Source: Ignavibacteriota bacterium (GTDB lineage: Bacteria > Bacteroidota > Ignavibacteria > UBA10030 > UBA6906). Taken from it: a DNA stretch of 64,000 bases. Position 1 is the first letter of the stretch. Every line of letters begins with the position of its first letter. The notes beneath the pieces were generated by a model. The model was not told where the DNA came from. It searched no databases and saw only the letters and a program-made list of their open reading frames with translations. The stretch spans positions 13,758-77,757 of the forward strand of contig PMJR01000120.1 of the NCBI GenBank assembly GCA_003158475.1, read 5' to 3'. Of the stretch, positions 8,622 through 32,196 are shown one piece after another. The position numbers were made by a program, and so were the translations under genes.

Positions 8622-8637
8622 GCCATAGTCCCGGCGT

Positions 8638-16898: not shown

Positions 16899-17150
16899 GG
16901 AGGGACACCCGCCTGATGGTATGAAGGGACAACGACTGCGCAATCTACTGGAGGGAAGGCCGGTAATCAAGGAGGCCGGTTAAATTGGCCCAACTAACAG
17001 ATTTTTGTGCCACCCCCCGGCGGTCGGAAGGCATCGAATAATTATCCGCCCGATACCCGGTCACCTCTTGACATTCACATTGACGCAAGGTATACTAGCC
17101 GCGAGAAGGTTTTCTCATCCCCCCCACGCCATGGGAACCTTTTTTCATCG

Positions 17151-18260
17151 ATGACAACTCCACTCGTCGATCTCTTCCTTGAAGCGGTCGCCATCGACGC
17201 GGTCTCGTTGCACGAAGCGCCCGTCGTCCGGTTCATCCGCGAGAAATTGTCCGGCCTTCCCGTCCGGATCGTGCAGGACGGAACAGGTCCGGTTGCCGGC
17301 GGGGAGACCGGGAACATCTTCTGCATCCCTCCAACGTTTGATCCCGCACGGCCGGCGGTCGCGCTTCTGGCGCACATGGACACGCCGCGATCGACGGCGA
17401 ATGTCCGTCCGGTCCTGAGCGAGTCCCGGATCTCGAGCGACGGCACCACGACTCTGGGTGTCGATAACCGTGCCGGCGTCTCGGTTCTTCTCCATGTCCT
17501 CTCCGAACATGTCCGCAAAGGGCTGAGCGGGAATTTTATCGTCGTCTTCACGTTCGGCGAGGAGATCGGCATGTACGGCTCGAAACACGTGGACCTGCAG
17601 CCGTACAACGTCAAAATGTGTTTTGTGTTTGACTGTTCGAAACGGCCCGGGACGTTCATTCAGTCCGCGGTCGGCAGTTCACTCTATACGGCGGTATTCC
17701 ACGGCAAATCGTCGCATGCAGGCGTGGCTCCTGAAAAGGGAGTGAACGCAATACAGATCGCTGCTCGGGCGCTGGGTGCGCTTGCGGTGGGACGGCTGAG
17801 TCCGACGATGACCGCAAATATCGGGATGATCGCCGGCGGCGAGGCGACGAACGTCGTCCCTGACCGGTGCAGGGTGGATGGGGAAGTCCGGGAGTTCAAC
17901 CAGCGCTCGATCGATGAGTATCTCGCGGAGGTGGAGGAGAAATTCTCCCGCGTCGCGACTGACAACGGCGGGTCTCTCACATTTGAATCGCAGATTGATT
18001 TTCCGCCGTTCGTCCTGGACCCCGACAGTGAGGCCTTCCGCACAATGACGGAGACGCTGGCGTCCGTTGGCCTTAGTCCGAACCCGATTCAGTACCTCGG
18101 GGGGAGCGATGCGAATATGCTTAATGCCAAAGGGATTCCAGCGATCAACATAGGCATCGGCGCGCAGAACCCGCACGGCAACGATGAGTTCATCCTTCTG
18201 GAAGACCTGGCCAAGACCGTGGAGATTGCGGAAGCATTGATCGCACGGAGCATCGGATGA
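17151..18260 (+). CDS. M20 family metallopeptidase (peptidase T / dipeptidase-like)
   Basis: HMDT, GVDNRAG, FGEEIGMYG and HAG metal/catalytic motifs. Start at MTTPLV. Confidence 0.8.
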   Translation: MTTPLVDLFLEAVAIDAVSLHEAPVVRFIREKLSGLPVRIVQDGTGPVAGGETGNIFCIPPTFDPARPAVALLAHMDTPRSTANVRPVLSESRISSDGTTTLGVDNRAGVSVLLHVLSEHVRKGLSGNFIVVFTFGEEIGMYGSKHVDLQPYNVKMCFVFDCSKRPGTFIQSAVGSSLYTAVFHGKSSHAGVAPEKGVNAIQIAARALGALAVGRLSPTMTANIGMIAGGEATNVVPDRCRVDGEVREFNQRSIDEYLAEVEEKFSRVATDNGGSLTFESQIDFPPFVLDPDSEAFRTMTETLASVGLSPNPIQYLGGSDANMLNAKGIPAINIGIGAQNPHGNDEFILLEDLAKTVEIAEALIARSIG

Positions 18261-19153
18261 ACGCCCCCTGCGCTTCGCACCGGCTCTGCTTCGCCGTGAT
18301 GGCTGTTGCTGTGACAGCGTGCACCGCTGCCGCACAGACGCCCCGGGGTACACTCTTTATCATCGGCGGCGGACACCGCACCACCGAGATGATGCGCCAG
18401 TTTGTGGACCTGGCAGGTGGACCCGGGAAGGCGAGACTGGTCGTGATTCCGAACGCCTCGGCTGACGGTGACACATCCTGCCGGGACATGGCAGAAGAGT
18501 TCCGTGCGCTCGGCGTCAGGACCGTGGACTGTTGTCTGCTGACGCACGAACAAGCGTCGGATCCCCGCTCTGCCGGGCAGCTTGACGGGGCGACCGGGGT
18601 CTACTTTACCGGCGGGGACCAGGTGCTCGTGACCAGGGCACTGGTCGGAACACCGGTGCACAGGAAGCTGCTGGAGTTGTATCGGGCGGGAGCAGTGATG
18701 GGGGGAACGAGTGCCGGCGCCGCCCTGATGAGCAAGGTGATGATAACGGGGGATGAGAAACTCAACAAGGATACGGTCAATGCATTCGTCTTTATAAAGA
18801 AGGACAACGTTGTTACGGTCGAGGGGATGGGTTTCCTGACGAACGCGATCATCGATCAGCATTTTGTCAGGCGGAAACGGCACAACCGGCTGATCAGCGT
18901 GGTCCTGGAGCACCCGGACCTCATCGGCGTCGGAATCGACGAAGCCACAGCGATCGTCGTTCGTGAAGGCGAACTCTTTGACGTGATCGGCCGCGGAAGC
19001 GTTGTGGTGTACGACGCGACCCGTGCAACGGGGATCAGGACCGACAGCCGGGGAAATCTGTCGGCGGAGGGCCTCTCGATGCATATACTTACCGCGGGGG
19101 ATTCGTATGAGATGAATTCGCACACCGTTCGCCCTGCGGAGGATGCCCGATGA
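18257..19153 (+). CDS. cphB: Cyanophycinase (peptidase S51, CphB/CphE-like), lipoprotein/secreted
   Basis: Collinear CphB motifs: FIIGGG, VIPNASADG, YFTGGDQVLV, GGTSAGAALM (Ser nucleophile), IDQHFVRRKRHNRLISVV...GIDEATA. Signal with lipobox VTAC. 4-nt overlap with the M20 gene. Confidence 0.8.
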   Translation: MNAPCASHRLCFAVMAVAVTACTAAAQTPRGTLFIIGGGHRTTEMMRQFVDLAGGPGKARLVVIPNASADGDTSCRDMAEEFRALGVRTVDCCLLTHEQASDPRSAGQLDGATGVYFTGGDQVLVTRALVGTPVHRKLLELYRAGAVMGGTSAGAALMSKVMITGDEKLNKDTVNAFVFIKKDNVVTVEGMGFLTNAIIDQHFVRRKRHNRLISVVLEHPDLIGVGIDEATAIVVREGELFDVIGRGSVVVYDATRATGIRTDSRGNLSAEGLSMHILTAGDSYEMNSHTVRPAEDAR

Positions 19154-20541
19154 AGGCGCGGCTTTCATTCAACACGCTCCTGATCGTCTATGGTGTCGTC
19201 CTGCTCGTCGCGCTGGCGACATGGATCGTGCCCGGGGGTGAATACCGTCGGGAAGTCAAAGACGGGAAGACTCTTGTCGTGCCCGGATCATTTGTCTACG
19301 GCGAGAGCCGGCCCCAGGGGCCTGGCGCGGTGCTTGCGGCGCCGCTCAGGGGATTCGTCGAGGCCGCAAACATTATCGCATTTCTGTTCGTCATTGGCGG
19401 ATCTTTCATGGTGATCCAGAGGACCGGGGCGATCACGGTGTCGCTTCATCGCATGGCCCTTGTGTTCGCCCGGAAGCCGCACCTTCAGAAATACTTCATC
19501 CCCGTGACCATGGTGATATTTGCGCTGGCAGGGGGACTTTTCGGCATGTGCGAGGAGACCATGCCGTTCGTGCTGATATTCATACCGCTTTCTCTCTCCC
19601 TCGGTTACGATTCACTTGTCGGCACGGCGATTCCGTTTCTGGGGGCCGCCGCAGGGTTTGCCGGGTCAGTCTTCAATCCCTTCACCGTCGGCATCGCCCA
19701 GCACATCGCCGAGCTCCCCCTCTATTCGGGGTACGAATACCGGATCGTCATCTGGGTGATCAGTACGGTCTCCATGGTCACATTCGTGATGCTGCATGCA
19801 GCCAGGGTCAGGAAGCAGCCGGAGCGGAGCCCGGTTTTTGATCTGGATCAGGAACGGAGGCGGACGCTCGAGCTTGAAGCCCGGGATGACCAGCAGATGA
19901 CACCGGGGCACAAGCTTGTCCTGGGAGCGTTCATGCTGACGCTCGTCCTCCTCGTTTACGGCGTCCTCCGCCACGGCTGGTACATCACGGAGATTGGTGC
20001 ACTGTTCCTCGGGCTCGGGCTTTTCGCCGGTCCGCTCGGCGGCCTGTCTCTGGCAAAATCGGCGGATGCTTTCAAGGAGGGTGCCCGCGACATGACGGGG
20101 GTCGCTCTTATTATCGGGTGCGCGCGCGCAATTCTCGTCGTTGCCGGCGACGGCAGGATCATTGATGTGCTCCTCTACTCGGTTGCGAGCACCATCGCCG
20201 GCCTTCACCCCATCCTCGCGTCGCAGGCCATGTTCGTCGCGCAGGGGGTTATCAACTTTTTCGTCCATTCCGGGTCGGGCCAGGCGGCCCTGACGATGCC
20301 TGTGATGGCTCCGCTGGCGGACGTCGTGGGGATCTCCCGGCAGACGGCGGTCCTGGCATTTCAGTTCGGGGAGGGATGGATCAATCCCATTCTCCCCACC
20401 TCCGGCGTCACGATGGGCGTGCTCGGGCTTGCGGGGATCTCCTGGGACCGCTGGTTCAGATGGATGCTCCCGGTGCAGGTGTATTTTTTCGTTCTCGCGC
20501 TTGTGTTGTTGATACCACCCTTTCTGTTTCATTACCACTAG
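19150..20541 (+). CDS. YfcC/DcuC-like family membrane transporter (putative basic amino acid/dipeptide carrier)
   Basis: 463 aa polytopic membrane protein. Overlaps the cyanophycinase stop by 4 nt. Confidence 0.7.
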   Translation: MKARLSFNTLLIVYGVVLLVALATWIVPGGEYRREVKDGKTLVVPGSFVYGESRPQGPGAVLAAPLRGFVEAANIIAFLFVIGGSFMVIQRTGAITVSLHRMALVFARKPHLQKYFIPVTMVIFALAGGLFGMCEETMPFVLIFIPLSLSLGYDSLVGTAIPFLGAAAGFAGSVFNPFTVGIAQHIAELPLYSGYEYRIVIWVISTVSMVTFVMLHAARVRKQPERSPVFDLDQERRRTLELEARDDQQMTPGHKLVLGAFMLTLVLLVYGVLRHGWYITEIGALFLGLGLFAGPLGGLSLAKSADAFKEGARDMTGVALIIGCARAILVVAGDGRIIDVLLYSVASTIAGLHPILASQAMFVAQGVINFFVHSGSGQAALTMPVMAPLADVVGISRQTAVLAFQFGEGWINPILPTSGVTMGVLGLAGISWDRWFRWMLPVQVYFFVLALVLLIPPFLFHYH

Positions 20542-20578
20542 CTCACCATTTCTCCAATCACTCCCGCAAGGAGGTGTT

Positions 20579-21715
20579 ATGAAACGATTCATTGCTACCG
20601 CGGCGGTTGTCCTGGCGCTGCTCTCATGCGACTACGCGCATGCGCAGGTGTACGGCCAGGGAAACGGGTTCGGCTACAGCCTGAACAAATACGGACGTGT
20701 CCGCATCTATACGCCAGACACGAACGGGACCACCCAATTGAACCGGGCGTCCATTCTTCTGGCGCTCAGCAAGACGAACGTGGGCGATTATACGGAAGAT
20801 GCCAACGCCGTGTCCGGACCGGCAATCACAGCCGACGGTCCCAGCCCCCGGACTGCGACGGTCCTGTTCGACAATTCGTACAATCTCCAGCAGCCAAAGG
20901 CCAAGGTCCGCCTGTCGACCTACACATGGCCGAACGATGCGTTTCTGATCGCCCGCTACACCGTTATCAATGATACGACAATCAGCTATCCCCTCTACCT
21001 GGGGCTTGCGGTGTCGCCCGAGCCCGGCGGGACATACGGCGGCGAGACCGTGACTTATGACGCCACAAAAAAAGTCGCTTACTTCTTCGTGTCGGGGACC
21101 GCGATGTACATGGGGGTCAAGCTGGTGAGCGGTTCACCCTATTCTTTCCACGTGCTTGACTATGGCGTGTATTCGCCGTCAGATCCAAGTTCCGACGCCG
21201 CCGACGATTCGACACGATACAATATGACAGCGCTTCCCGGATTCGATAATTCGCTCACGGTCGGCGCGAACGGATCGATCTACAATCTGAACGTCGGCGC
21301 GGTGACGATCGCCCACGGTGACTCCTCGACGTTCAGCGTCGCCTACGTCTGGGGGACCACGTTGAGCGCCATGCAGGCCGCGGCTGATTCGGCCGATGCG
21401 CGCTACAAGAAGGTGTTCACATCGATCCTGCAGACATCTCAGGCCGTTCCTCAGAGGACATCGCTCCTTCAGAACTACCCGAATCCCTTCAACCCGGCGA
21501 CCCTGATTGAGTTCCAGCTCCATCACGCAGGGGAAGTGTCGTTGAGAGTCTATGACGTCCTCGGGCGGGAAGTCGCCGTGCTTGCGAACGGCACGCTGAA
21601 TGCAGGGACGTACCGCGTCCCCTTCGACGGGCGCCAGCTTGCAAGCGGCATCTACTACTACAGGCTCGTCGCAGGTTCATTCACCGACTCGAAGCGCATG
21701 TTGCTCGTGAAATAA
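20579..21715 (+). CDS. Secreted hypothetical protein with T9SS (Por) C-terminal sorting domain
   Basis: Signal peptide. C-terminal LQNYPNPFNPATLIEFQL...GIYYYRLVAGSFTDSKRMLLVK. Confidence 0.7.
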   Translation: MKRFIATAAVVLALLSCDYAHAQVYGQGNGFGYSLNKYGRVRIYTPDTNGTTQLNRASILLALSKTNVGDYTEDANAVSGPAITADGPSPRTATVLFDNSYNLQQPKAKVRLSTYTWPNDAFLIARYTVINDTTISYPLYLGLAVSPEPGGTYGGETVTYDATKKVAYFFVSGTAMYMGVKLVSGSPYSFHVLDYGVYSPSDPSSDAADDSTRYNMTALPGFDNSLTVGANGSIYNLNVGAVTIAHGDSSTFSVAYVWGTTLSAMQAAADSADARYKKVFTSILQTSQAVPQRTSLLQNYPNPFNPATLIEFQLHHAGEVSLRVYDVLGREVAVLANGTLNAGTYRVPFDGRQLASGIYYYRLVAGSFTDSKRMLLVK

Positions 21716-21718
21716 CCG

Positions 21719-22609
21719 ATGAAACGGGCAGGCGGGAACGGGGCAGAGGAGCGGCGCGGATCGCCGGACCTGGAAGCACTCATCCAGCGGAAGTACCCCG
21801 AGCTTCCGGAGAACCAGCGCAAAGTGGCTGATTTTCTCGTCCAGCATATCCGCGAGGCGCCGTTTCTCTCCGTCATGGAGATCGAAGACCGAAGCGGGGC
21901 CAGCAAGGCGACTGTCGTCAGGCTGGCCCAGAGCCTCGGGTTCTCGGGCTTCCTCGAAATGCGCGGGAAGCTTATAAAACGCGTTCAGTCCCAGATGCGG
22001 ATTACGGAGATGTTTCCCCTGCTCCCGCGGACGAGCCGAGAGGAAACGCTCACGGCGGTCGCCGACCAGGATGTCAGGAACATCAACGAGACGATCAACC
22101 AGCTGGACCGGAAGGTCTTCGCGGACGTTGCACGGATGATTCTCAGTGCCGCGCGCGTGTATACGCTCGGCCTGGGAATCTCCTCGCTCATGGCCAGGAT
22201 CCTCGCGTACTCGCTCAGCCAGGTGGCGATCCGGTCGACGTCGCTCGTGCATGACTATGAGACCTTCATCGAACAGATCCACCAGTTCGACCGCTCGGAT
22301 CTGATCATCGCGTTCTCGTTCCCTCCGTATTCGAAGGAGACGATCGAGGTTGCCAGGGCGGCCGCAAAGAGGAAAACAACGATCGTCGCGGTAACCGACA
22401 GGGTGACATCCCCTGTGAGCGTGTACGCCGCACGCGTGCTCCCTGTCGTCAGCCAGAACATGCTGTTCACAAATTCTTTCTCCGCCATTTCCGTTATAAT
22501 TAATGCCCTCACCACGGAGGTCGCTCTCCTGAACAAGGCGAAAGCATTGAAGAACCTGAGGGAGTGCGAGAGACTGCTCGAACGAACGGGACACTACTAC
22601 GCAGGGTAG
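21719..22609 (+). CDS. RpiR/MurR family transcriptional regulator (HTH plus SIS domain)
   Basis: HTH (FLSVMEIEDRSGASKATVVRLAQSLGFSG) and a SIS sugar-isomerase fold region. The antisense 330-aa ORF was rejected. Confidence 0.8.
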   Translation: MKRAGGNGAEERRGSPDLEALIQRKYPELPENQRKVADFLVQHIREAPFLSVMEIEDRSGASKATVVRLAQSLGFSGFLEMRGKLIKRVQSQMRITEMFPLLPRTSREETLTAVADQDVRNINETINQLDRKVFADVARMILSAARVYTLGLGISSLMARILAYSLSQVAIRSTSLVHDYETFIEQIHQFDRSDLIIAFSFPPYSKETIEVARAAAKRKTTIVAVTDRVTSPVSVYAARVLPVVSQNMLFTNSFSAISVIINALTTEVALLNKAKALKNLRECERLLERTGHYYAG

Positions 22610-22619
22610 AGGAATCGCC

Positions 22620-25082
22620 ATGAAACCAACCCTTTGCCTTTTCCTGGTCCTCCTCGCGGGGGCCGGCACGCTGATTGCGGGAACAACAGGGAAGATCAGC
22701 GGTCACATCACGGACGCAGGAAGCGGTGAATCACTTGTCGGTGCAAACATGGCCCTCGTCGGCGCGCCGCTCGGGGCGTCGACGGGCACCGACGGGACCT
22801 ATGTCATACTGAACATCCCGCCGGGAACGTACGATCTGCGGGTGACGCTCGTGGGCTACGGCCCCACGCTGATCAAGGGTGTGCGGATCGTGGCCGACCA
22901 GACGACGACACTTGACGCGAAGCTCGAGGTTGCAGCGGTGGGACTGGCGGAGGTGGTGATCCAGGCCGAGCGGCCGATGGTACAGAAGGACGCGACGGCC
23001 ACAATCGCCGTCATCAACAGCGAACAGATCAAGATGATGCCGGTGAAGGACTTCGTGGAGGTGCTCCAGATGCAGTCGGGTGTGGTGGCTGACGGCAGGA
23101 ACCTCTATGTGCGGGGGGGCCGCTCGAACGAAGTTGCCTATCTCATCGACGGCATGTACGTCAAGGACCCGGTCCTGGGGACTTCGGGGACGAGGATCCA
23201 CAACGAAGCCATTTCGGAGCTGGTGTTTCTCGACGGGTCGTTCAATGCCGAGTACGGGAATGCGCTCAGCGGAGTTGTCAACATCGTGACGAAGGAGGGG
23301 GGGAAGGACTTTACAGGGTTGCTCGAAGGCCGCACGAGTGAATTCGGCATCAGTCCTTACAATCAATACCGGGAGGACCGGGTCGCGGCATTGATCAGCG
23401 GCCCGATTGCGGGTGATAACCTGAACTTCTTTGCAAGCGGCGAACGGGACGCCCGGGGAAGCTGGCTCCCCTTCGGCTACGACCGGACACTCTCCTTCAT
23501 CGGGAAAGTCAGCGGAACACTCATTCCCGGGTTTAAGACAACCCTGACGGGGAGGTACAGCGCGAACGACAACCGGCCGTACGATCAGAGCTGGAAATAC
23601 ATCGGCAATCAATACCTGAAGGTCCGGGAAAAGAGCAGGCAGACTCTCCTCACTGTCACACACACGGTTCTTCCGAATCTTTTCTACGACGTGCGGTTGT
23701 CGTATTTTAACCAGTCGTACTATTCGGGGATCGACAAGGATACCTCGCAGTATCTCTCCACGGGGAGCCGGCAGTACTTCCGGAACGCCGGGCTGGGGAC
23801 CGAGTTCTATTCCCTGGCGGATCCGGTTGAAGTCACCGATAACCGGACGGAGACGTTCAACGTCCGGGGAGACCTCACCTGGCAGATCGGGCGCAATAAC
23901 GAGGTACGCACGGGTTTCGACTTCAAGAAACACAACCTTTCCTATTTCGACGTCTACGATCCCAAGCGGGTCGCTCCGTATGTCACGGATTTCGACAAAC
24001 ACCCGGTCGAGGGGGCGGCCTACATCCAGGACAAGATCGAAATGAGCTCGCTCGTCGTCAGCCTCGGGCTCCGGTTCGATTATGCCGATCAAAGGGCGCC
24101 CTTCCGGAGCAACCCTCTCGACCCCGCATCGATCGTCCCCTCGAAGGCGAAGACACAGTGGAGTCCGCGTCTCGGCGTCGCCCACCCGATAAGCGACCGG
24201 ACGGCACTCCACTTCTCGTACGGACATTTCTTTCAGAATCCCGACTACGAGCGCCTGTATGAAAATTCGCAGTATGACGTCCACGTCAACCAGCCGATCT
24301 TCGGCCAGCCGGATCTCAATGCCGAGAGGACGACGGAATACGAGGTGGGCATCACGCATCAGTTCAGCCCGACATTTACCGCCTCTTTTACCGCCTATTA
24401 CAAGGATATTACCGGCCTCATAGGAACGATGTATTACCCGCCGTTCCAGGATGGGAGATATGTCGGCTACTACCTGTACGTCAATGAGGCATATGCCAAC
24501 GACAAGGGTTTTGAGACCCGCCTGACCATGCGAAGGTCGAAGTATCTGGCGGGATCGCTCACGTATACCTACTCGGTGGCGAAAGGGAGCGCATCGTCCG
24601 AGCTGGAGAACTATCCCAGTACGACGCAATCCACGCTTCTGTACCCGCTGAATCAGGACAGGACGCATCTCCTGAACGCCAACGTCAGCGTGATGTTCCC
24701 CGCCGACGACGGCCCTTCCATGTTCGGATCGTATCCTCTGGAAAACACGTACTGGAACGTGATCATCCGCGTCAACAGCGGGGCGCCGTACACGCCATCG
24801 AGCAGACGCAGCAGCTTCATCCCGATCAATTCCGCCCGCATGCCGACGACGTACTCCATCGATCTCGAATTCGGAAAATCGTGGAAGTTCGGCCAGTTTG
24901 GGTTCGAACCGTTCGTGGAAATTCTCAACCTTACGGACCACAAAAATGTCCTGTATGTCTGGCCGGACACCGGCGAACCCGACGTCACATTTGATACCGC
25001 CCACTCGACAGAATACCTCCAGGACCCGAGTAACTACGGGCCCCCGCGGCGAATCCGGATCGGCGCACGGCTGACGCTGTGA
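22620..25082 (+). CDS. TonB-dependent receptor-like OM protein with N-terminal carboxypeptidase-regulatory-like domain and plug
   Basis: Signal peptide. CarbopepD_reg-like (ISGHITDAGSGESLVGANMAL...TYDLRVTLVGY). Plug (NLYVRGGRSNEVAYLIDGMYV). Long beta-barrel. Confidence 0.75.
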   Translation: MKPTLCLFLVLLAGAGTLIAGTTGKISGHITDAGSGESLVGANMALVGAPLGASTGTDGTYVILNIPPGTYDLRVTLVGYGPTLIKGVRIVADQTTTLDAKLEVAAVGLAEVVIQAERPMVQKDATATIAVINSEQIKMMPVKDFVEVLQMQSGVVADGRNLYVRGGRSNEVAYLIDGMYVKDPVLGTSGTRIHNEAISELVFLDGSFNAEYGNALSGVVNIVTKEGGKDFTGLLEGRTSEFGISPYNQYREDRVAALISGPIAGDNLNFFASGERDARGSWLPFGYDRTLSFIGKVSGTLIPGFKTTLTGRYSANDNRPYDQSWKYIGNQYLKVREKSRQTLLTVTHTVLPNLFYDVRLSYFNQSYYSGIDKDTSQYLSTGSRQYFRNAGLGTEFYSLADPVEVTDNRTETFNVRGDLTWQIGRNNEVRTGFDFKKHNLSYFDVYDPKRVAPYVTDFDKHPVEGAAYIQDKIEMSSLVVSLGLRFDYADQRAPFRSNPLDPASIVPSKAKTQWSPRLGVAHPISDRTALHFSYGHFFQNPDYERLYENSQYDVHVNQPIFGQPDLNAERTTEYEVGITHQFSPTFTASFTAYYKDITGLIGTMYYPPFQDGRYVGYYLYVNEAYANDKGFETRLTMRRSKYLAGSLTYTYSVAKGSASSELENYPSTTQSTLLYPLNQDRTHLLNANVSVMFPADDGPSMFGSYPLENTYWNVIIRVNSGAPYTPSSRRSSFIPINSARMPTTYSIDLEFGKSWKFGQFGFEPFVEILNLTDHKNVLYVWPDTGEPDVTFDTAHSTEYLQDPSNYGPPRRIRIGARLTL

Positions 25083-25144
25083 GCCACGCACGCGGTGTTC
25101 GACCGTCAGCGGCTTCATCCCCAGGCGCGAAAGGACAATCAATC

Positions 25145-27676
25145 ATGACAATGAGCTCTCACGGAAGATCCAGTGCCGCGATCGCACGCTGCGCCCTGTG
25201 TCTCGTGTGGTGCCTGGCCTTCACTCCGGGGCGCGCAGACGCACAGGAGAAGAAAAACAGGAAGGAGGACGAGAGGCCCCTGACGGTGCAGAAGTCCTCC
25301 GACATACTCGACCGCGCAGGCGGGGCGCATACGAAGAGCAACATCGGCTCCTATTTCGTGAACAGGGGAAAACTCTACGCATCGGACTACTCGCAGGGTC
25401 CGACGTTCGAGTGGCCGATCGGATCCACGCATGAGTTCGTCTACCGGGCGAACCCCTACGTCGGCATTCCGGGCAACGTGGTCCAGGGTAGGTTCTACAG
25501 CCACTCGGAATGGGAGGCGGCGGCCGGATACAACAACCGCGATAGCGCACAACCGGCATTCAGCGACAGGCCCTACACGTGGCCGGCAGGCGGATGGCCG
25601 GTGAAGGACGCGTCCGGGAAGCCTGTTTTTGTCTCGAACCAGGACAGCTACTGCGTGTACAACGATTCGCTGAACACCGTGGGGATACTCAACCTTCAGA
25701 TAAACCAGACCGGCTATGCCTTCAGCCAGAAGAACGTTCGTGACATGGTCATCTACATTTTCGATGTCACGAACCGGTCGACCCGGACCTACGACAGTGT
25801 CTACTTCGGCGTCTATGCCGATATCTCCTGCGGTGGATCCGACAAGGTGCAGGATTACGGGCACCGCCGGATGGTGTTCGATAAGTCGCTGAACCGGCTC
25901 TACCTGTACAAGCCCAGCGGTGTCTCGTTTCAGTGGAATGGCGCGCCGAGCGGCTACTTCGGAGTGATTCTGATGCAAACGCCAAAGGTCAACGGCACAC
26001 AACTCGGTATCACCGACTGGCATTATAATCACTATGCGGATGATCAGGACCAGGACTGGGTGCAGTACGGTACACTCTCCAGTTCGCCGGCCCTTTTTAC
26101 AGACATACTCGGCCCGAAGTTCTTCCACCCCGGGGCGAACGCCCCCGATCTTCACTATGACGACCCGGCGACGATCCCGGCGGACGGCGATGATATCGTT
26201 TCCACGATGGGATCGGGTCCGTACAGGCTTGCACCCGGTGATACGCTCAGGTTCATCACTGCGTGGGTGGCGGCGGGAACGGCGTCCGATATGGACCAGA
26301 TTACCTCCAATGCGTACAAACTGCTGGCGCAGGAGTTCGTCACTTCGAAACCCCCCGGGGCTCCGAAGGTGACGGCTGTTCCCGGGGACAGGAAGGTCCT
26401 CCTGACGTGGGACAACACGGCGGAGAGCTCGCGTGACATTTTCACGAACGCGGTCAACTTCGAAGGGTACCACCTGTACAAGAGCGTCGACAAGGGGCAG
26501 CACTGGGATCAGATCGATCGGAACTCCGTGGCAATCGGTCCGGACCCTGTTCCGCTTGCATCCTTTGACAAAATCGACGGCATGGGAAAGGAGACCGGCC
26601 TCCAGTACAGCTTCATCGATTCGAATGTGACGAACGGATTTGAATACTGGTATTCGGTAACGGGATACACGGTGCCGGATGCAGACAATGCTGTCCTGGA
26701 AACTCCCCTTGGACGCGCGGGGGATAACAATGTGGGAGTCGCGGTCCCCCGATCCACGGCAACAGCCCGAACACCTGTCGGGACGACCCCGGTGCAGAAG
26801 ACCGGGACCGGAACGGCAAACGTCCTCTTCCGCGTCACTGCGCTTGATATCCCTCCGGCAGGCGGACTCACGTACGACGTAAGCTTCGCGCCCGCTGCAA
26901 CCCTGGAGCAAGGCAACCCGCGGATGACGGTGCAGGTCGGCATCGATTCCGTCGGGTTGCGGACCTCGGAGACATACAGCCTCGCGTTTGCCTCGCCGAC
27001 GCAGTTCGTGCTGCGAAATCTGACCGAGAAGACGGTCCTCATCGCGTCCGGCACATTGACATCGGGTGCGCCAATCCTCTTTGAAGGGATCCGTCTGACC
27101 GTGACGGTGGCCTCCGCGTCCCCGGCGGATCTTCCCAAACAGGGGGATTCGCTCGTGGTGTGCCCCGGCGTGAAGGTCGACGTCACGGGGCAGCAGAATG
27201 TCCTGCCGCTGCAGCCGTTTGAGTACGGGACCGCCTATGCCACGTCCAACGGCGTGGTGTTCTCGATCACGCCGGCCGACACGTTCGCGCAAAGCCGGAT
27301 CACGTACCGGGACCGTTACAGCTTCACGACAACCGCAGCCGCGCTGAGTCCCGCCGCGACCACTGACGACCTGGGGAAAATCAAGGTGGTGCCGAACCCG
27401 TACATCGTGTCTTCCCGGTACGAGCAGGAATTTGGGATTCTTCGCAAAGAGCCGCTCCGGCAACTCAAGTTCAACAACCTGCCGGCGAAATGCACGATCT
27501 ATATCTTCTCCCTGGCAGGCGACAAGGTCCAGACCATTGAGCACTACAGCGACAATGGCACGGAAACATGGGACATGCGCACGGCGGGGAACCGTGAGAT
27601 CGCCCCCGGGGTGTACATCTACCTCGTGAAGACGGATACAGCCGAGAAGACCGGCCGCTTTGCGGTGATCAAATAG
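25145..27676 (+). CDS. Large secreted protein (about 840 aa) with FN3-like module and T9SS-type C-terminal beta-sandwich domain
   Basis: RBS aaagga plus ATG 25145. Signal AAIARCALCLVWCLAFTPGRADAQ. FN3-like PGAPKVTAVPGDRKVLLTWDNT. C-terminal KIKVVPNPYIV...GVYIYLVKTDTAEKTGRFAVIK. Confidence 0.65.
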   Translation: MTMSSHGRSSAAIARCALCLVWCLAFTPGRADAQEKKNRKEDERPLTVQKSSDILDRAGGAHTKSNIGSYFVNRGKLYASDYSQGPTFEWPIGSTHEFVYRANPYVGIPGNVVQGRFYSHSEWEAAAGYNNRDSAQPAFSDRPYTWPAGGWPVKDASGKPVFVSNQDSYCVYNDSLNTVGILNLQINQTGYAFSQKNVRDMVIYIFDVTNRSTRTYDSVYFGVYADISCGGSDKVQDYGHRRMVFDKSLNRLYLYKPSGVSFQWNGAPSGYFGVILMQTPKVNGTQLGITDWHYNHYADDQDQDWVQYGTLSSSPALFTDILGPKFFHPGANAPDLHYDDPATIPADGDDIVSTMGSGPYRLAPGDTLRFITAWVAAGTASDMDQITSNAYKLLAQEFVTSKPPGAPKVTAVPGDRKVLLTWDNTAESSRDIFTNAVNFEGYHLYKSVDKGQHWDQIDRNSVAIGPDPVPLASFDKIDGMGKETGLQYSFIDSNVTNGFEYWYSVTGYTVPDADNAVLETPLGRAGDNNVGVAVPRSTATARTPVGTTPVQKTGTGTANVLFRVTALDIPPAGGLTYDVSFAPAATLEQGNPRMTVQVGIDSVGLRTSETYSLAFASPTQFVLRNLTEKTVLIASGTLTSGAPILFEGIRLTVTVASASPADLPKQGDSLVVCPGVKVDVTGQQNVLPLQPFEYGTAYATSNGVVFSITPADTFAQSRITYRDRYSFTTTAAALSPAATTDDLGKIKVVPNPYIVSSRYEQEFGILRKEPLRQLKFNNLPAKCTIYIFSLAGDKVQTIEHYSDNGTETWDMRTAGNREIAPGVYIYLVKTDTAEKTGRFAVIK

Positions 27677-27680
27677 GAGG

Positions 27681-28685
27681 ATGGCCATGAAGAGAGTGAT
27701 TCTTCTTGCCCTCGCGATCGCACTCTGCCAGGTTCAAACGAGAGCGCAGAATCCGAATATCGGGACAGCAGGAGCACAGTTCCTGAAAATCCCGGTCGGT
27801 CCCCGGGCGGCGGCCATGGCCGGCGCGTTCGTGTCCAACACCGATGACGCGTCTTCACTCTTCTGGAACCCGGCCGGGATCGTCGGCGTGAAATCCGGCG
27901 CGCTGTTTGCCGCGCATACCGACTGGTGGGAAACGATCAAGCTGAACCACGCCGCGCTTGTGGAGTCGTTCGAGGACATCGGCTCATTCGGCGTCTCCGT
28001 CACGGTGCTTTCGATGGGCGAAATGGAGGTCACGACCGAAGATCAACCTGAGGGGACCGGCCAGTCATTCGACGCACAGGACGTGATGATCGGCGTCAGC
28101 TATGCCCGGAGGCTGACAAATGAATTCAGCGTCGGCATCACTGCGAAGTACGTGCAGCAGCGGATCTGGAACGAATCGGCGAGCGCCATCGCGTTTGATA
28201 TCGGGACCCAGTACCGCATCGGGTTCCGGGATCTGACCATCGGCATGAGCATGATGAATTTCGGCGGCAACATGACGTACGCCGGTCCGGACCTCGGGGT
28301 CAAATACACCGTGGACCCGAACAATGCCGGCGTGCGTCTTGCACCGGCCAATCTTGCCCCGGATGACTATCCACTCCCCCTTCATTTCCAGGTCGGGGTT
28401 TCGATGTCTCCGTATACCAGCGAGAACTTTTCGATGCTGCTTGCGGTCGATGTTGCGCACCCGAACGACAACCAGGAGGAGGTGAATGTCGGGACGGAGT
28501 TGACCATTCTCCGCCAGTTCTTCCTCCGCGGGGGGTACCGGTTCGGGTACGACATCGAGAAGGCAACGTTCGGTGCCGGCGTGGCTCTCCCGCTCGGCGG
28601 CCTCAACCTGACCGTCGACTACGCCTATGCGATGTACAACCTGCTTCCCAACATCAGCCGGATCTCGGTCGGCATGGCGTTCTGA
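27681..28685 (+). CDS. PorV/PorQ family (T9SS-associated FadL-like OM protein)
   Basis: Signal peptide. N-terminal GTAGAQFLKIPVGPRAAAMAGAFVSNTDDASSLFWNPAGI signature. Ends MAF. Confidence 0.6.
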   Translation: MAMKRVILLALAIALCQVQTRAQNPNIGTAGAQFLKIPVGPRAAAMAGAFVSNTDDASSLFWNPAGIVGVKSGALFAAHTDWWETIKLNHAALVESFEDIGSFGVSVTVLSMGEMEVTTEDQPEGTGQSFDAQDVMIGVSYARRLTNEFSVGITAKYVQQRIWNESASAIAFDIGTQYRIGFRDLTIGMSMMNFGGNMTYAGPDLGVKYTVDPNNAGVRLAPANLAPDDYPLPLHFQVGVSMSPYTSENFSMLLAVDVAHPNDNQEEVNVGTELTILRQFFLRGGYRFGYDIEKATFGAGVALPLGGLNLTVDYAYAMYNLLPNISRISVGMAF

Positions 28686-30697: not shown

Positions 30698-32196
30698 AAG
30701 CTCCCGCACGGTCCGTCGTCCGATCCACAGGTCTCTGCGCACTCCTGTTGCTTCTCGCGCTTCCAGTTCGCCCGCAACCACGATTACAATCCCCCGTCGA
30801 ACGTTCCGGTTTCGAACGGCTGACCTCCTACGACACGCTGCAGGCGTTTCTGGAAACCCTGGACGGGAGGGGACATTGCACGGTCAGGCGTATTGCGCAG
30901 ACGCACAAGGGGCGGAGTGTGTCGTCAGTTCTCGTCACTTCCTCCCCCCGTTTCGGCGAGGATACGTTGAAGCTGCGCGTGATGCTCTTCGCACAGCAGC
31001 ATGGGGACGAGCCCTCGGGAAAAGAAGCACTGACACTCCTCCTTGCACGGATTGCCGGGCTCGACCTGGACCGGATTCTCTCGCGGATTGACCTGATCAT
31101 CGTCCCCCAGATGAACCCCGACGGTTCGGAACTCCGCCAGCGGCGCACCGCGGATGACGTCGACCTCAACCGCAATCATCTCCTGCTGACTTCGCCTGAA
31201 ACACGCGGGCTCCACGATCTCTTTGACACCTGGTGGCCCGAGGTGACGATGGACATTCATGAGTACGGGCCGAACAGCCGGGCCTGGAGCGATTCCGGTT
31301 TCGTGAAGTCCGTCGACGTCCAGCTTGGCATGCTGACCAATCTCAACTCGTCCGGGGCGCTCCGCGTGTATGAGAGGGGTTCGGCCTTCCCCTTTGTCGA
31401 TTCGACGATGCAGAAGTGCGGCTACTCGTTCCATGAATACATTGTCGGCTCGCCGGAGGATTTCATCCGTTACAGCACGACGGAGCCCAATGACGGGCGG
31501 CAGAGTTTCGGGATACTGAACACGCTCTCGTTCATTCAGGAAGGACGCGGCGGCACGGAGCTTGAGGATGGTCTGGAACGGCGCGCCAGGTCACAGTGTG
31601 CTTCCATCGAGGCGCTGCTGGCTTTCTGTGCCGGCCGGTCCGCGGAGATCCGCACTCTCGTAGCCCGTGAACGCCGGGCGCTGGTCGCGGGTCGGGGACT
31701 GCCGGTCGTTCTCTGCATGGACCATTTCGTCGGGGGGAGGAAGATGATCATCCCCGTCCGGCGCGTACCCTCGGGACGGGATACGCTCTGGCAGGTGCAT
31801 CCGCTTCACGACCAGGTGAAGCCCCTCTGCACGCGCTCCCTCCCGTCCGGCTACATCATTCCGGGAGAACTCACCGGCATCAGGGAGATTCTCGACCGCC
31901 ACCACGTGCAGCGGGAGATCGTTGTCGGTTCGCGGCGGGTGGATGCCGTCGCCTACATAATCGAGAGCGTGCAACCCGACACCCTGGAGGGGGAGTGGCA
32001 TCCCAGGCCGTCACTCCGGGCCGAAAAAGTCAAAAGGGTTCTGCGTACGGGAGATATCGTCGTGCGTACGGATCAAACCCGTTCGCTCTTCCTGGGGATT
32101 CTCCTGGAGCCCGAATCGATGTGGGGGCTCGTCAAGTACGACGGCTTCAGTTCACTGCTCCAGGGGAGGGAGTATCCGATACTCAGGATCCCGTGA
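30694..32196 (+). CDS. Secreted M14 family zinc carboxypeptidase (MpaA / gamma-D-Glu-diamino acid peptidase-like)
   Basis: Signal peptide. HGDEPSG (HxxE zinc ligands), NRNH, DIHEY. 4-nt overlap with the upstream gene. Confidence 0.75.
   Translation: MKAPARSVVRSTGLCALLLLLALPVRPQPRLQSPVERSGFERLTSYDTLQAFLETLDGRGHCTVRRIAQTHKGRSVSSVLVTSSPRFGEDTLKLRVMLFAQQHGDEPSGKEALTLLLARIAGLDLDRILSRIDLIIVPQMNPDGSELRQRRTADDVDLNRNHLLLTSPETRGLHDLFDTWWPEVTMDIHEYGPNSRAWSDSGFVKSVDVQLGMLTNLNSSGALRVYERGSAFPFVDSTMQKCGYSFHEYIVGSPEDFIRYSTTEPNDGRQSFGILNTLSFIQEGRGGTELEDGLERRARSQCASIEALLAFCAGRSAEIRTLVARERRALVAGRGLPVVLCMDHFVGGRKMIIPVRRVPSGRDTLWQVHPLHDQVKPLCTRSLPSGYIIPGELTGIREILDRHHVQREIVVGSRRVDAVAYIIESVQPDTLEGEWHPRPSLRAEKVKRVLRTGDIVVRTDQTRSLFLGILLEPESMWGLVKYDGFSSLLQGREYPILRIP

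What the first reader, a model, noticed from the sequence alone, without database searches (positions are those of the whole stretch)
17151..20541. Compact cyanophycin (beta-Asp-Arg) utilisation operon: M20 peptidase, lipoprotein cyanophycinase, YfcC transporter
What the sequence shows: three plus-strand genes with ATGA/4-nt overlaps. The middle protein is collinear with CphB motif by motif (GGG, GGDQ, GTSAGA, DQHF...GIDE) and carries a lipoprotein signal (VTAC). Established knowledge: extracellular cyanophycinases (CphE) let non-cyanobacteria feed on cyanophycin, the released beta-Asp-Arg must be imported and split, and YfcC/DcuC-family carriers include basic amino-acid transporters. Inference: the M20 peptidase is a candidate beta-aspartyl dipeptidase. 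This role is normally assigned to isoaspartyl dipeptidase or Ntn asparaginase, so it would be a new enzyme partner. A second cyanophycinase-like gene sits 8 kb downstream, which suggests that isopeptide polymers matter in this organism's niche.
Basis: partly seen in the sequence, partly recalled or inferred. Interest (0 to 1): 0.6.

Follow-up and report, generated by a model that had tools for sequence, protein, structure and literature searches.

The report
Cyanophycin-scavenging locus with M20 dipeptidase candidate
The three genes are real and lead a conserved 10-gene locus that most likely lets this Ignavibacteria-type bacterium feed on the nitrogen-storage polymer cyanophycin, and the M20 peptidase is a strong untested candidate for the enzyme that splits the released beta-Asp-Arg dipeptide.

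Summary
M20 (17151-18260), S51 (18257-19153) and YfcC (19150-20541) are plus-strand genes joined by ATGA overlaps.

- **The S51 protein is a cyanophycinase.** It scores 179 bits on TIGR02069 (cutoff 126.6) and 17 bits on PepE. It keeps all nine CphB catalytic and pocket residues and has a signal peptide.
- **The trio is not a free-standing operon.** It heads a same-strand array of 10 genes reaching 32196. That array is conserved across Ignavibacteria, including the cultured Ignavibacterium album, and in a KSB1 genome.
- **The M20 clade is tightly linked to cyanophycin genes.** Of 91 informative loci, 78 have a cyanophycinase directly downstream. Seven Kapaibacterium-type loci have cyanophycinase plus cyanophycin-synthetase-like genes directly upstream.
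- **The link occurs in three different genomic settings.** One is a SusC/SusD locus in gut and rumen Bacteroidales.
- **No known dipeptidase is in the window.** I found no IadA, IaaA or CphZ. The literature I could search does not link M20 to cyanophycin, and it says the Bacteroidota dipeptidase is undiscovered.

The most likely mechanism is surface and periplasmic depolymerisation, YfcC import, then cytoplasmic M20 hydrolysis of beta-Asp-Arg. The M20 and YfcC roles are inferred from gene context, not shown. I rate this a new variant of a known kind, with interest 0.62.

The parts
17068..17096 (+). Sigma-70-like promoter match (TTGACA-17-TATACT) in the 181-bp divergent gap before the M20 gene
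   Evidence: One search gives 11 of 12 matches. This is a consensus match only. The number of such matches in the region is no higher than in shuffled sequence.
17151..18260 (+). Cytoplasmic M20 metallopeptidase (369 aa), candidate beta-Asp-Arg/Lys dipeptide hydrolase
   Evidence: Pfam M20 and M20_dimer. It scores 214 bits on TIGR01883 PepT-like, below the 274 cutoff. PDB 3gb0 matches at 4e-62. Metal and catalytic residues H75, D105, E137, E138, D161 and H342 are invariant. It has no signal peptide. It is linked to cyanophycin genes in 85 of 91 loci.
18257..19153 (+). Exported cyanophycinase (298 aa; signal peptide with a possible lipobox VTAC)
   Evidence: It scores 179 bits on TIGR02069, above the 126.6 cutoff. 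PDB cyanophycinases match at 1e-32 and 6e-24. Q122, S152, D200, Q201, H202, R206, R208, R211 and E229 align with CphB Q101, S132, D172, Q173, H174, R178, R180, R183 and E201. All orthologues carry a signal peptide.
19150..20541 (+). YfcC/DcuC-family inner-membrane carrier (463 aa), candidate beta-Asp-Arg importer
   Evidence: Pfam DcuC matches at 8e-99. It scores 386 bits on NF008611 YfcC, below the 500 cutoff. It follows the M20, or the M20-S51 pair, in 87 of 91 loci.
20579..21715 (+). Secreted protein of unknown function (378 aa) with a type IX secretion (T9SS) C-terminal sorting domain
   Evidence: TIGR04183 scores 39 bits against a cutoff of 23. It is syntenic across Ignavibacteria and KSB1. 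Its core is homologous to the N-terminal region of the 843-aa protein. No PDB relative was found.
21719..22609 (+). RpiR/MurR-family regulator (HTH_6 plus SIS domains), effector unknown
   Evidence: It is syntenic. It also accompanies the minimal receptor-M20-YfcC loci of Aminicenantes-type genomes.
22620..25082 (+). TonB-dependent outer-membrane receptor (820 aa), not SusC-type
   Evidence: Plug, beta-barrel and CarboxypepD_reg domains. It scores 65 bits on TIGR04056 SusC against a cutoff of 368. It is syntenic at 52-95% identity.
25145..27676 (+). Conserved 843-aa exported protein of unknown function with a T9SS-like tail; probably a surface accessory of the receptor
   Evidence: No Pfam domain beyond a weak tail match. 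It is labelled 'hypothetical' in every source. The profile search found no PDB hit. The AF2 model (pLDDT 69.5) gives only FN3/Ig-like beta-sandwich matches. It always lies between the receptor and the PorV/Q-like gene.
27687..28685 (+). PorV/PorQ-family outer-membrane beta-barrel
   Evidence: NF033709 scores 222 bits against a cutoff of 90. It is syntenic.
28685..30697 (+). Cyanophycinase-like S51 protein (670 aa) secreted or anchored by T9SS; candidate surface depolymerase
   Evidence: It scores 117 bits on TIGR02069, below the 126.6 cutoff. The T9SS tail scores 26.5 bits against a cutoff of 23. PDB cyanophycinases match at 7e-20. S141, H191, R195, R197 and R200 are kept, but Y223 replaces the triad Glu201. 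It is in the same position in KSB1 and in the Melioribacter-type loci.
30694..32196 (+). Exported M14 zinc carboxypeptidase-like protein (500 aa), overlapping the stop codon of the S51 gene before it
   Evidence: Pfam M14 at 5e-12, plus a weak AstE_AspA_cat match at 7.5e-5 that is below cutoff. The best PDB match is 4a37 at 2e-4. Elsewhere it is found next to the large S51 gene only in L024 and L029, and it is absent in KSB1. I treat it as an optional accessory.

Best explanation
The three genes are the inner-membrane and cytoplasmic end of a conserved cyanophycin-scavenging locus at 17151-32196. The proposed sequence of events is below.

1. The T9SS-exported S51 protein attacks cyanophycin released from lysed cells at the cell surface. 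Two unknown-function surface proteins that share a novel domain probably help.
2. The TonB-dependent receptor, with the PorV/Q-like barrel, takes fragments into the periplasm.
3. The exported cyanophycinase (18257-19153) cuts them to beta-Asp-Arg or beta-Asp-Lys dipeptides.
4. YfcC (19150-20541) carries the dipeptide across the inner membrane.
5. The cytoplasmic M20 enzyme (17151-18260) hydrolyses the isopeptide bond to give Asp plus Arg.

**What is shown:** gene content, family membership, conservation of the cyanophycinase active site, export signals, and synteny.

**What is inferred:** the substrates of M20, YfcC, the receptor and the large S51 protein; the order of events; and the effector of the RpiR regulator. 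The stated confidence of 0.6 is for the M20 and YfcC assignment. I put the cyanophycinase assignment at about 0.85.
For: **Cyanophycinase identity.**
- It passes the TIGR02069 equivalog and fails PepE.
- Its nearest solved relatives are cyanophycinases.
- All nine CphB catalytic and pocket residues are conserved, also in distant orthologues.

**Topology.** Every S51 orthologue has a signal peptide. The M20 has none. YfcC is a DcuC-family carrier.

**Linkage of the M20 clade.** The locus M20s form one clade well separated from PDB 3gb0. Among 91 informative loci:
- 78 have a cyanophycinase immediately downstream, 75 of them followed by YfcC.
- 7 Kapaibacterium-type loci read cyanophycinase (188 bits) - CphA-like 644 aa - CphA-like 707 aa - M20 - YfcC.

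**Three architectures carry the cassette.**
- Ignavibacteria and KSB1, with a TonB receptor and T9SS proteins.
- Gut and rumen Bacteroidales, with SusC (852 bits), a SusD-like protein and a choice-of-anchor-J lipoprotein.
- The Kapaibacterium storage cluster.

**Minimal loci.** RpiR, receptor, M20 and YfcC occur without a cyanophycinase. This parallels CphZ plus an Arg transporter in genomes that lack cyanophycinase (PMC9974463).

**No alternative in the window.** I found no IadA, IaaA, CphZ or CphA.

**Chemical plausibility (established knowledge).** beta-Asp-Arg is an N-(aminosuccinyl) amino acid. M20 enzymes include N-succinyl and N-acetyl amino-acid deacylases such as DapE and ArgE.

**An analogous pair.** In C. 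difficile, yfcC lies in an apparent operon with an M20D amidohydrolase behind a lysine riboswitch (PMC11477304).

**The literature gap.** PMC10206079 says the isoaspartyl dipeptidases of Firmicutes and Bacteroidota 'remain undiscovered'. My searches found nothing linking M20 to cyanophycin.
Against: - There is no biochemical evidence. The case rests on gene context.
- The nearest named relatives of the M20 are PepT-like di- and tripeptidases that act on alpha-peptides.
- Clade-specific residues did not reveal an obvious Arg-binding feature.
- Most of the 91 loci descend from a few ancestral operons, and all were seeded with the M20. They are therefore not 91 independent observations, and the reverse question (what lies next to cyanophycinases in general) was not sampled.
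- Five loci have M20-YfcC with no cyanophycin gene in the flank, and one has the M20 alone.
- I could not scan the rest of any genome for iadA, iaaA or cphZ.
- An RpiR/SIS regulator normally senses sugar phosphates, which this model does not explain.
- The large S51 protein lacks the triad Glu and scores below the cyanophycinase cutoff.
- An exported M14 enzyme in this locus could be an alternative dipeptide or side-chain hydrolase.
Confidence: 0.6

Rival explanations
1. The M20 is a general PepT-like di- or tripeptidase for ordinary alpha-peptides brought in by YfcC. The locus would be a broad peptide and nitrogen-scavenging locus in which cyanophycinase is only one of several depolymerases. 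Another enzyme elsewhere in the genome would split beta-Asp-Arg.
For: - The best family and structure matches are PepT-like (214 bits on TIGR01883; 3gb0 at 4e-62).
- JGI annotates homologues as 'tripeptide aminopeptidase'.
- M20-YfcC occurs without any cyanophycin gene in 5 loci, and with only a receptor and RpiR in Aminicenantes-type genomes.
- No specificity-determining residue was identified.
Against: - The protein scores below the cutoffs of both PepT (67 vs 286 bits) and PepT-like (214 vs 274 bits), and it sits on a long separate branch.
- Its gene overlaps the cyanophycinase gene, and the order is kept down to 39% identity and across three outer-membrane architectures.
- It sits directly after cyanophycin synthetase-like genes in Kapaibacteria.
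- No other peptide-specific enzyme is consistently present.
Confidence: 0.2
2. The isopeptide bond is cut outside the cytoplasm by the exported M14 carboxypeptidase-like protein, a functional analogue of the M14/AstE-like CphZ, or by an unlinked IadA or IaaA. YfcC then imports free arginine as a basic amino-acid antiporter, and the M20 has an unrelated role.
For: - CphZ belongs to the M14/succinylglutamate-desuccinylase group (PMC9974463, PMC10206079).
- The M14 gene overlaps the large S51 gene and gives a weak AstE_AspA_cat match.
- NCBIfam names YfcC a 'putative basic amino acid antiporter'.
Against: - The M14 is found next to the large S51 gene only in the window's lineage and in L024 and L029.
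- It is absent after that gene in KSB1, and absent from the Bacteroidales and Kapaibacterium loci.
- No solved CphZ structure appeared among its PDB matches up to E = 1; the best matches are M14 cytosolic-carboxypeptidase-like proteins at 2e-4.
- This rival does not explain why M20 is the most constant partner of cyanophycinase.
Confidence: 0.1
3. The natural substrate is not cyanophycin but another Asp-containing or isopeptide-linked material, such as other beta-aspartyl peptides or cell-wall-derived peptides. The S51 enzymes would then be cyanophycinase-like exopeptidases with a different specificity.
For: - The regulator is RpiR/MurR-type, a family that usually senses sugar phosphates such as MurNAc-6-P.
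- The M14 has a faint MpaA match.
- The large S51 lacks Glu201 and scores below the cutoff.
- The cassette is common in gut and rumen Bacteroidales, where the abundance of cyanophycin is unclear.
Against: - The small S51 keeps every CphB pocket residue and passes the equivalog cutoff here, in Bacteroidales (140 bits) and in Kapaibacteria (188 bits).
- The Kapaibacterium clusters contain cyanophycin synthetase-like genes.
- No sugar-active or muropeptide-specific enzyme is part of the conserved locus. The downstream enolase-superfamily gene is MenC-like and not syntenic.
Confidence: 0.1

Closest known systems
Cyanophycinases CphB (intracellular) and CphE (extracellular), peptidase family S51
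   Same: The 298-aa protein passes the cyanophycinase equivalog model and keeps the Ser-His-Glu triad and the Gln/Asp/Arg pocket of Synechocystis CphB. Like CphE, it is exported.
   Different: It is encoded inside a TonB-receptor and T9SS locus rather than next to cphA. It is paired with a second, 670-aa, T9SS-tailed paralogue that lacks the triad Glu.
Cyanophycin utilisation locus of Salinivirga cyanobacteriivorans (Ben Hania et al. 2017, as summarised in PMC10206079 and PMC6243061)
   Same: Both are scavenging loci in an organism of the Fibrobacteres-Chlorobi-Bacteroidetes (FCB) group without cphA. Both combine a small cyanophycinase, a larger one with a Por-secretion domain, a dipeptidase and a transporter.
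   Different: The dipeptidase there is IadA, while here an M20 enzyme occupies that role. I could not read the original paper or that genome, so the identity of its transporter and outer-membrane components could not be compared.
CphZ/AotO with the AotJQMP transporter (cyanophycin dipeptide hydrolase, M14/AstE-like; PMC9974463)
   Same: The logic is the same. A dedicated hydrolase is encoded with a basic-amino-acid-type transporter, often in genomes without any cyanophycinase. The receptor-M20-YfcC loci of Aminicenantes-type genomes look like this.
   Different: The protein fold (M20 vs M14-like) and the transporter family (YfcC/DcuC vs ABC) are unrelated. CphZ activity has been demonstrated, whereas the M20 activity has not.
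PepT and PepT-like peptidases (M20B; TIGR01882/TIGR01883; PDB 3gb0, 1fno)
   Same: They share the fold, the dimerisation domain and the metal ligands. PDB 3gb0 matches over the full length at E = 4e-62.
   Different: The protein scores below both family cutoffs and forms a separate clade. Its genomic context is cyanophycin genes rather than general peptide metabolism.
SusC/SusD polysaccharide-utilisation loci of Bacteroidota
   Same: The overall design is shared: surface enzymes and binding proteins, a TonB-dependent importer, a periplasmic enzyme, an inner-membrane carrier, a cytoplasmic enzyme and a local regulator. In Bacteroidales the same M20-S51-YfcC cassette sits in a true SusC/SusD locus.
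   Different: In this window there is no SusD, and the receptor is not SusC-type. Its partners are an unknown 843-aa protein and a PorV/Q-like barrel. The substrate is a polyamide, not a glycan.

Membership tests
Cyanophycinase (TIGR02069; S51) - small protein 18257-19153 | Score above the curated equivalog cutoff, and well above the sister family PepE | tested here: met
   It scores 179.2 bits against a cutoff of 126.6. PepE NF003642 scores 17.3 bits against a cutoff of 156.
Cyanophycinase (TIGR02069; S51) - small protein 18257-19153 | Catalytic Ser132-His174-Glu201 (CphB numbering) | tested here: met
   S152, H202 and E229 align with them. The numbering offset of 20 for PDB chain 3en0 was inferred from the alignment.
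Cyanophycinase (TIGR02069; S51) - small protein 18257-19153 | Substrate pocket Gln101, Asp172, Gln173, Arg178, Arg180, Arg183 (recalled from Law et al. 2009; the residue identities match the 3en0 sequence) | tested here: met
   Q122, D200, Q201, R206, R208 and R211 are present. The Melioribacter-type orthologue (L038) included in the alignment also keeps them.
Cyanophycinase (TIGR02069; S51) - small protein 18257-19153 | Hydrolysis of cyanophycin to beta-Asp-Arg | not testable with these tools
   This needs an enzyme assay.
CphE-type (exported) cyanophycinase | N-terminal secretion signal | tested here: met
   A hydrophobic N-terminal signal is present in the window protein and in all orthologues inspected. 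This was judged by eye, without a predictor. The lipobox Cys occurs only in some lineages.
Cyanophycinase - large protein 28685-30697 | Equivalog cutoff and complete catalytic triad | tested here: not met
   It scores 117 bits, below 126.6. Glu201 is replaced by Tyr223 here and by Val or Ala in the Melioribacter-type orthologues. Ser, His and the three Arg residues are kept. I therefore call it cyanophycinase-like only.
T9SS cargo (type A C-terminal sorting domain) | TIGR04183 above cutoff | tested here: met
   The 378-aa protein scores 39.3 bits and the large S51 scores 26.5 bits, both above the cutoff of 23. The 843-aa protein scores 18.6 bits, below the cutoff.
Peptidase family M20 | Pfam M20 and M20_dimer above gathering score; metal and catalytic residues present | tested here: met
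   PF01546 scores 62 bits and PF07687 scores 67 bits. H75, D105, E137, E138, D161 and H342 are invariant in 87 sequences.
Peptidase T / PepT-like (TIGR01882, TIGR01883) | Score above the curated cutoff | tested here: not met
   It scores 67.4 bits against 285.75, and 213.8 bits against 274.25. It sits on a separate branch from 3gb0.
Known beta-aspartyl dipeptidases (IadA, IaaA, CphZ) | Homology to the amidohydrolase (M38), Ntn asparaginase-2 or M14/AstE-like families | tested here: not met
   The M20 protein matches none of these. If the function is right, it is an analogue and not a member.
Known beta-aspartyl dipeptidases (IadA, IaaA, CphZ) | Hydrolysis of beta-Asp-Arg or beta-Asp-Lys | not testable with these tools
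   This needs an enzyme assay.
YfcC (NF008611) / DcuC family | Family model score | tested here: inconclusive
   Pfam DcuC scores 332 bits, far above its cutoff. The YfcC equivalog scores 386 bits, below its cutoff of 500. The protein is therefore a family member but not an E. coli YfcC equivalog. Its substrate is unknown.
SusC/SusD-type utilisation locus | Adjacent SusC-type receptor and SusD lipoprotein | tested here: not met
   The receptor scores 65 bits on TIGR04056 against a cutoff of 368, and no SusD is present. Bacteroidales relatives of the cassette do meet this criterion.
Cyanophycin utilisation locus sensu Ben Hania 2017 | Cyanophycinase(s), iadA and a transporter, with no cphA | tested here: inconclusive
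   Cyanophycinases and a transporter are present, and no cphA lies in the 64-kb window. iadA is absent. The original description could not be read.

The most novel reading that the evidence does not exclude
The most novel reading has three parts.

- This M20 clade is a fourth, convergently evolved family of cyanophycin dipeptide hydrolases, after IadA, IaaA and CphZ. It would be the 'missing' enzyme of Bacteroidota in the broad sense.
- Its constant partner YfcC is the first dedicated beta-Asp-Arg permease.
- The two unknown-function surface proteins share a new domain that binds or processes cyanophycin on a T9SS-anchored, TonB-dependent uptake machine.

Because the same cassette sits in SusC/SusD loci of human-gut and rumen Bacteroidales, cyanophycin or its dipeptides would be a dedicated nutrient in animal guts as well.
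Probability: 0.4. Interest if true: 0.75.

Novelty: new variant of a known kind. Interest (0 to 1): 0.62.

Why it matters
**It addresses a stated open question.** Cyanophycin turnover needs a last step, splitting beta-Asp-Arg. The field's own survey says the enzyme for this step is unknown in Bacteroidota and Firmicutes (PMC10206079). This locus gives a specific, widely conserved candidate, an M20 enzyme. It also suggests a candidate importer and a complete outer-to-inner uptake route.

**It is testable now.** Ignavibacterium album is cultured and carries the locus. [quoted passage not shown]

**It would widen where cyanophycin matters.** If confirmed, cyanophycin would count as a shared nitrogen and carbon resource in peat and soil Ignavibacteria, in KSB1 and in gut and rumen Bacteroidales.

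**It would add tools.** The enzymes could be useful for making or degrading cyanophycin-derived dipeptides.

Tried and rejected
- **The 843-aa protein.** The profile search against PDB found nothing. The AF2 model was only moderate (pLDDT 69.5), and Foldseek returned generic FN3/Ig beta-sandwich chains with TM-scores near 0.1. No function could be assigned.
- **The 378-aa protein.** It gave only its T9SS tail in PDB. It is not related to the choice-of-anchor-J lipoprotein of the Bacteroidales loci.
- **M14 as a CphZ homologue.** I rejected this. No CphZ match appeared up to E = 1, and the gene is not conserved in the locus.
- **A murein-peptide recycling locus (M14/MpaA-like plus enolase-superfamily epimerase plus RpiR/MurR).** I rejected this. 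The enolase-superfamily gene at 32227-33336 is MenC/NSAR-type (344 bits on TIGR01928; 1sja at 5e-105). It is not syntenic elsewhere.
- **Clade-specific residues of the M20 versus 3gb0.** I listed them, but they gave no interpretable specificity signal.
- **Literature.** The Ben Hania 2017 paper is not held. The supplements of PMC10206079 contain no Ignavibacteria entries. Searches for cyanophycinase with M20, SusC or Ignavibacteria found nothing on this cassette.
- **Promoter and terminator scan.** The counts were no higher than in shuffled sequence, and there was no convincing internal terminator.
- **Not possible with these tools.** I could not scan whole genomes for iadA, iaaA or cphZ, or build a CphB/CphE/PepE tree with reference sequences.

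Full report
**1. What is in the sequence**

The three ORFs exist as described: 17151-18260, 18257-19153 and 19150-20541, all on the plus strand. Both junctions are ATGA start/stop overlaps.

The M20 gene starts at 17151, not at the upstream GTG at 17007. Three things support this. Orthologues align from residue 1. Independent gene calls on six metagenome contigs that carry the identical protein give 369 aa. A TTGACA-17-TATACT match lies at 17068-17096, although such matches are not enriched over shuffled sequence.

Those six contigs include a 99-kb scaffold named WOOD18-1. The closest genomes are 'fen' Ignavibacteriae metagenome-assembled genomes. The organism is therefore an uncultured member of the Ignavibacteria, with about 60% G+C.

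**2. Identity of the three proteins**

*The S51 protein.*
- It scores 179.2 bits on the NCBIfam cyanophycinase equivalog TIGR02069 (cutoff 126.6). It scores only 17.3 bits on PepE (cutoff 156).
- Its best solved relatives are cyanophycinases 7uqv (1e-32) and 3en0 (6e-24).
- Counting along the 3en0 alignment shows that the chain carries a 20-residue offset. With that offset, the residues I recalled from Law et al. (2009) all fall on the expected letters. These are the triad Ser132, His174 and Glu201, and the pocket Gln101, Asp172, Gln173, Arg178, Arg180 and Arg183.
- The window protein has the same residue at every one of these positions: Q122, S152, D200, Q201, H202, R206, R208, R211 and E229.
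- It has an N-terminal signal peptide, as do all orthologues inspected.
- The VTAC lipobox is confined to the window's lineage. Most Ignavibacteria orthologues have no Cys there. Bacteroidales orthologues have a clear lipobox.

*The M20 protein.*
- It has the M20 catalytic and dimerisation domains, invariant metal and catalytic residues, and no signal peptide.
- It resembles the PepT-like structure 3gb0 (4e-62).
- It scores below the cutoffs of both PepT-like (214 vs 274 bits) and PepT (67 vs 286 bits).
- In a neighbour-joining tree, it and its relatives form a clade on a long branch away from 3gb0.

*The third protein.*
- It is a DcuC/YfcC-family carrier. Pfam DcuC matches at 8e-99. It scores 386 bits on the YfcC equivalog, below the 500 cutoff.

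**3. The trio is the head of a larger locus**

Same-strand genes follow with gaps of 38 nt or less, or with overlaps:

| Coordinates | Product |
|---|---|
| 20579-21715 | 378-aa T9SS-tailed protein, function unknown |
| 21719-22609 | RpiR/SIS regulator |
| 22620-25082 | TonB-dependent receptor |
| 25145-27676 | 843-aa protein with no recognisable domain |
| 27687-28685 | PorV/PorQ-family barrel |
| 30694-32196 | Exported M14 carboxypeptidase-like protein |

I scanned one genome per species with an alignment of M20 homologues. This returned 80 loci, almost all from Ignavibacteria.

tblastn with the window's proteins showed a conserved order: M20, S51, YfcC, 378-aa protein, RpiR, receptor, 843-aa protein, PorV/Q. 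The order holds down to about 40% M20 identity.

Three further results extend this:
- The cultured Ignavibacterium album JCM 16511 has the locus.
- So does a candidate-division KSB1 genome. There the large S51 again follows the PorV/Q-like gene, but no M14 gene is present.
- The large S51 follows the PorV/Q-like gene in the Melioribacter-type loci too.

M14 is next to the large S51 only here and in L024 and L029.

**4. Independent contexts for the M20**

*Kapaibacterium.* These genomes and matching metagenome contigs carry five genes in a row on one strand:
1. a signal-less cyanophycinase (188 bits);
2. a 644-aa CphA-like ATP-grasp protein;
3. a 707-aa protein with the cyanophycin-synthetase N-terminal domain;
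4. the M20;
5. YfcC.

*Gut and rumen Bacteroidales.* These genomes carry the following order:
1. SusC (852 bits on TIGR04056);
2. a SusD-like protein;
3. a choice-of-anchor-J lipoprotein;
4. the M20;
5. a lipoprotein cyanophycinase (140 bits, above the cutoff, and named cyanophycinase by NCBI);
6. YfcC.

*Aminicenantes- and Chrysiogenales-type contigs.* These have a divergent RpiR gene, a TonB-dependent receptor, the M20 and YfcC, with no cyanophycinase.

*Overall tally* of 95 loci holding an M20 of this clade:

| Class | Loci |
|---|---|
| Contig ends too soon to judge | 4 |
| Cyanophycinase immediately downstream | 78 (75 of them followed by YfcC) |
| Cyanophycinase or CphA-like genes immediately upstream | 7 |
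| YfcC only | 5 |
| M20 alone | 1 |

These are not independent events, and all were found by seeding with the M20. Even so, the association recurs in three architectures with different outer-membrane machinery, and with S51 paralogues only 29-39% identical to each other.

**5. Mechanism**

The most economical reading is a cyanophycin-scavenging route.
- Surface attack is by the T9SS-exported S51-like enzyme.
- TonB-dependent uptake brings the fragments into the periplasm.
- The exported cyanophycinase cuts them to beta-Asp-Arg.
- YfcC imports the dipeptide.
- The M20 hydrolyses it in the cytoplasm.

*Shown:* family memberships, active-site conservation of the small S51, export signals and synteny.

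*Inferred:* every substrate other than that of the small S51.

*Supporting context:*
- I found no IadA, IaaA, CphZ or CphA in the 64-kb window.
- beta-Asp-Arg is an N-(aminosuccinyl) amino acid, close to the N-succinyl and N-acetyl amino acids handled by M20 deacylases such as DapE and ArgE (established knowledge).
- A YfcC plus M20D-amidohydrolase operon behind a lysine riboswitch in C. difficile suggests a general 'import a basic-amino-acid conjugate, then release the amino acid' module (PMC11477304).
- M20-YfcC loci without cyanophycinase mirror CphZ/AotO with the Aot transporter in Pseudomonas, which consumes dipeptides made by neighbouring organisms (PMC9974463).

**6. Weak points and rivals**

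- There is no biochemistry.
- The nearest named relatives of the M20 act on alpha-peptides.
- Clade-specific residues gave no specificity clue.
- The RpiR/SIS regulator normally senses sugar phosphates, and the model does not explain it.
- The large S51 protein scores below the cutoff (117 bits). It has Tyr in place of the triad Glu, and Val or Ala in the Melioribacter-type orthologues. Its activity is therefore uncertain.
- The exported M14 could in principle strip Arg from the dipeptide or the polymer, as CphZ is M14-like. However, it is not conserved in the locus, and no CphZ structure appeared among its PDB matches.
- I considered a murein-peptide reading and dropped it. The downstream enolase-superfamily gene is MenC/NSAR-type and not syntenic.

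**7. Comparison with what is known**

- Cyanophycinases, extracellular CphE, and a 'cyanophycin utilisation locus' with two cyanophycinases (one with a Por-secretion domain), IadA and a transporter are already described in FCB-group bacteria (PMC10206079, PMC6243061).
- CphZ is the most recent dipeptide hydrolase (PMC9974463).
- The new elements are the M20 enzyme in the dipeptidase position, the constant YfcC partner, and the TonB-receptor/843-aa/PorV-Q/T9SS form of the locus. The same cassette also sits in SusC/SusD loci of gut Bacteroidales.
- PMC10206079 states that the isoaspartyl dipeptidases of Firmicutes and Bacteroidota 'remain undiscovered'.
- My searches found no paper linking M20 to cyanophycin. 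The library lacks most subscription journals, including the original cyanophycin utilisation locus paper.

**8. Verdict**

- Novelty: a new variant of a known kind.
- Interest is 0.62. This is a concrete, well-supported and readily testable candidate for a stated gap in cyanophycin biology. It is not a new principle, and the function is still unproven.

Noticed in passing
window 25145-27676 and 20579-21715: The 843-aa and 378-aa exported proteins have no Pfam or PDB relatives. They share a homologous region of about 220-300 residues (hhalign probability 94.8%, E = 5e-8). It contains many invariant Asp, His, Trp and Gly residues. This is an undescribed domain family that always lies next to a TonB-dependent receptor and a PorV/Q-like barrel.
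   Followed up: partly
window 28685-30697; also L024, L029, L038, L055, L064, L087: The T9SS-tailed S51 paralogue replaces the catalytic-triad Glu201 with Tyr, or with Val or Ala in the Melioribacter-type orthologues. It keeps Ser, His and the three pocket Arg residues. It also carries about 330 extra residues before the sorting domain. It may be a Ser-His dyad enzyme, use another acid, or act as a binding protein.
   Followed up: partly
window 21719-22609; also L089, L090: An RpiR/SIS regulator travels with M20-YfcC even in minimal loci that have no cyanophycinase. This family usually senses sugar phosphates. No sugar-handling gene is present, and its effector is unexplained.
   Followed up: no
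L047-L049, L091-L094, L103 (Kapaibacterium-type): The cyanophycinase is followed by two shortened cyanophycin-synthetase-like genes of 644 aa and 707 aa. Each covers different parts of the CphA model. They could form a split or CphA2-like synthetase. The cluster sits between purH and M20-YfcC. In the close relative L070, purH sits directly upstream of M20-YfcC with no cph genes between.
   Followed up: partly
window 32227-33336: An enolase-superfamily gene starts 31 nt after the M14 gene. It is o-succinylbenzoate synthase / N-succinylamino-acid racemase type (344 bits on TIGR01928; PDB 1sja at 5e-105). It is not syntenic with the locus elsewhere, apart from a different position in L016. N-succinyl-Arg is nearly isosteric with beta-Asp-Arg, so a link cannot be excluded.
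   Followed up: partly
window 15453-16898 (-) and 13815-15425 (+): Divergent from the M20 gene lies an exported C45-family Ntn hydrolase/acyltransferase (126 bits on NF040521, cutoff 85). Upstream of it is an exported fusion of HEAT repeats with a serine beta-lactamase/DD-peptidase fold. Both are conserved only in the closest relatives.
   Followed up: no
L002 7570-8961 (metagenome copy of the same locus): In one assembly the YfcC gene is called as two pieces of 49 aa and 403 aa. This could be a frameshift or an assembly error in that population.
   Followed up: no
window 7014-11182 (-): Two large genes lie here, and at least one encodes multihaem cytochrome c domains of the c7/c3 type.
   Followed up: no
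window 34486-35577, 38320-40461, 56357-58729: There are further secreted proteins: a T9SS-tailed GH16 glycoside hydrolase, a T9SS-tailed BNR/sortilin-like protein, and a PA-M28-TFR_dimer protein resembling glutamate carboxypeptidase II.
   Followed up: no
L095-L099, L101 (gut and rumen Bacteroidales): The M20-cyanophycinase-YfcC cassette sits in a SusC/SusD locus with a choice-of-anchor-J lipoprotein. Members of these protein clusters were seen on up to about 100 contigs each. This suggests that use of cyanophycin or its dipeptides is common in animal-gut Bacteroidales.
   Followed up: partly
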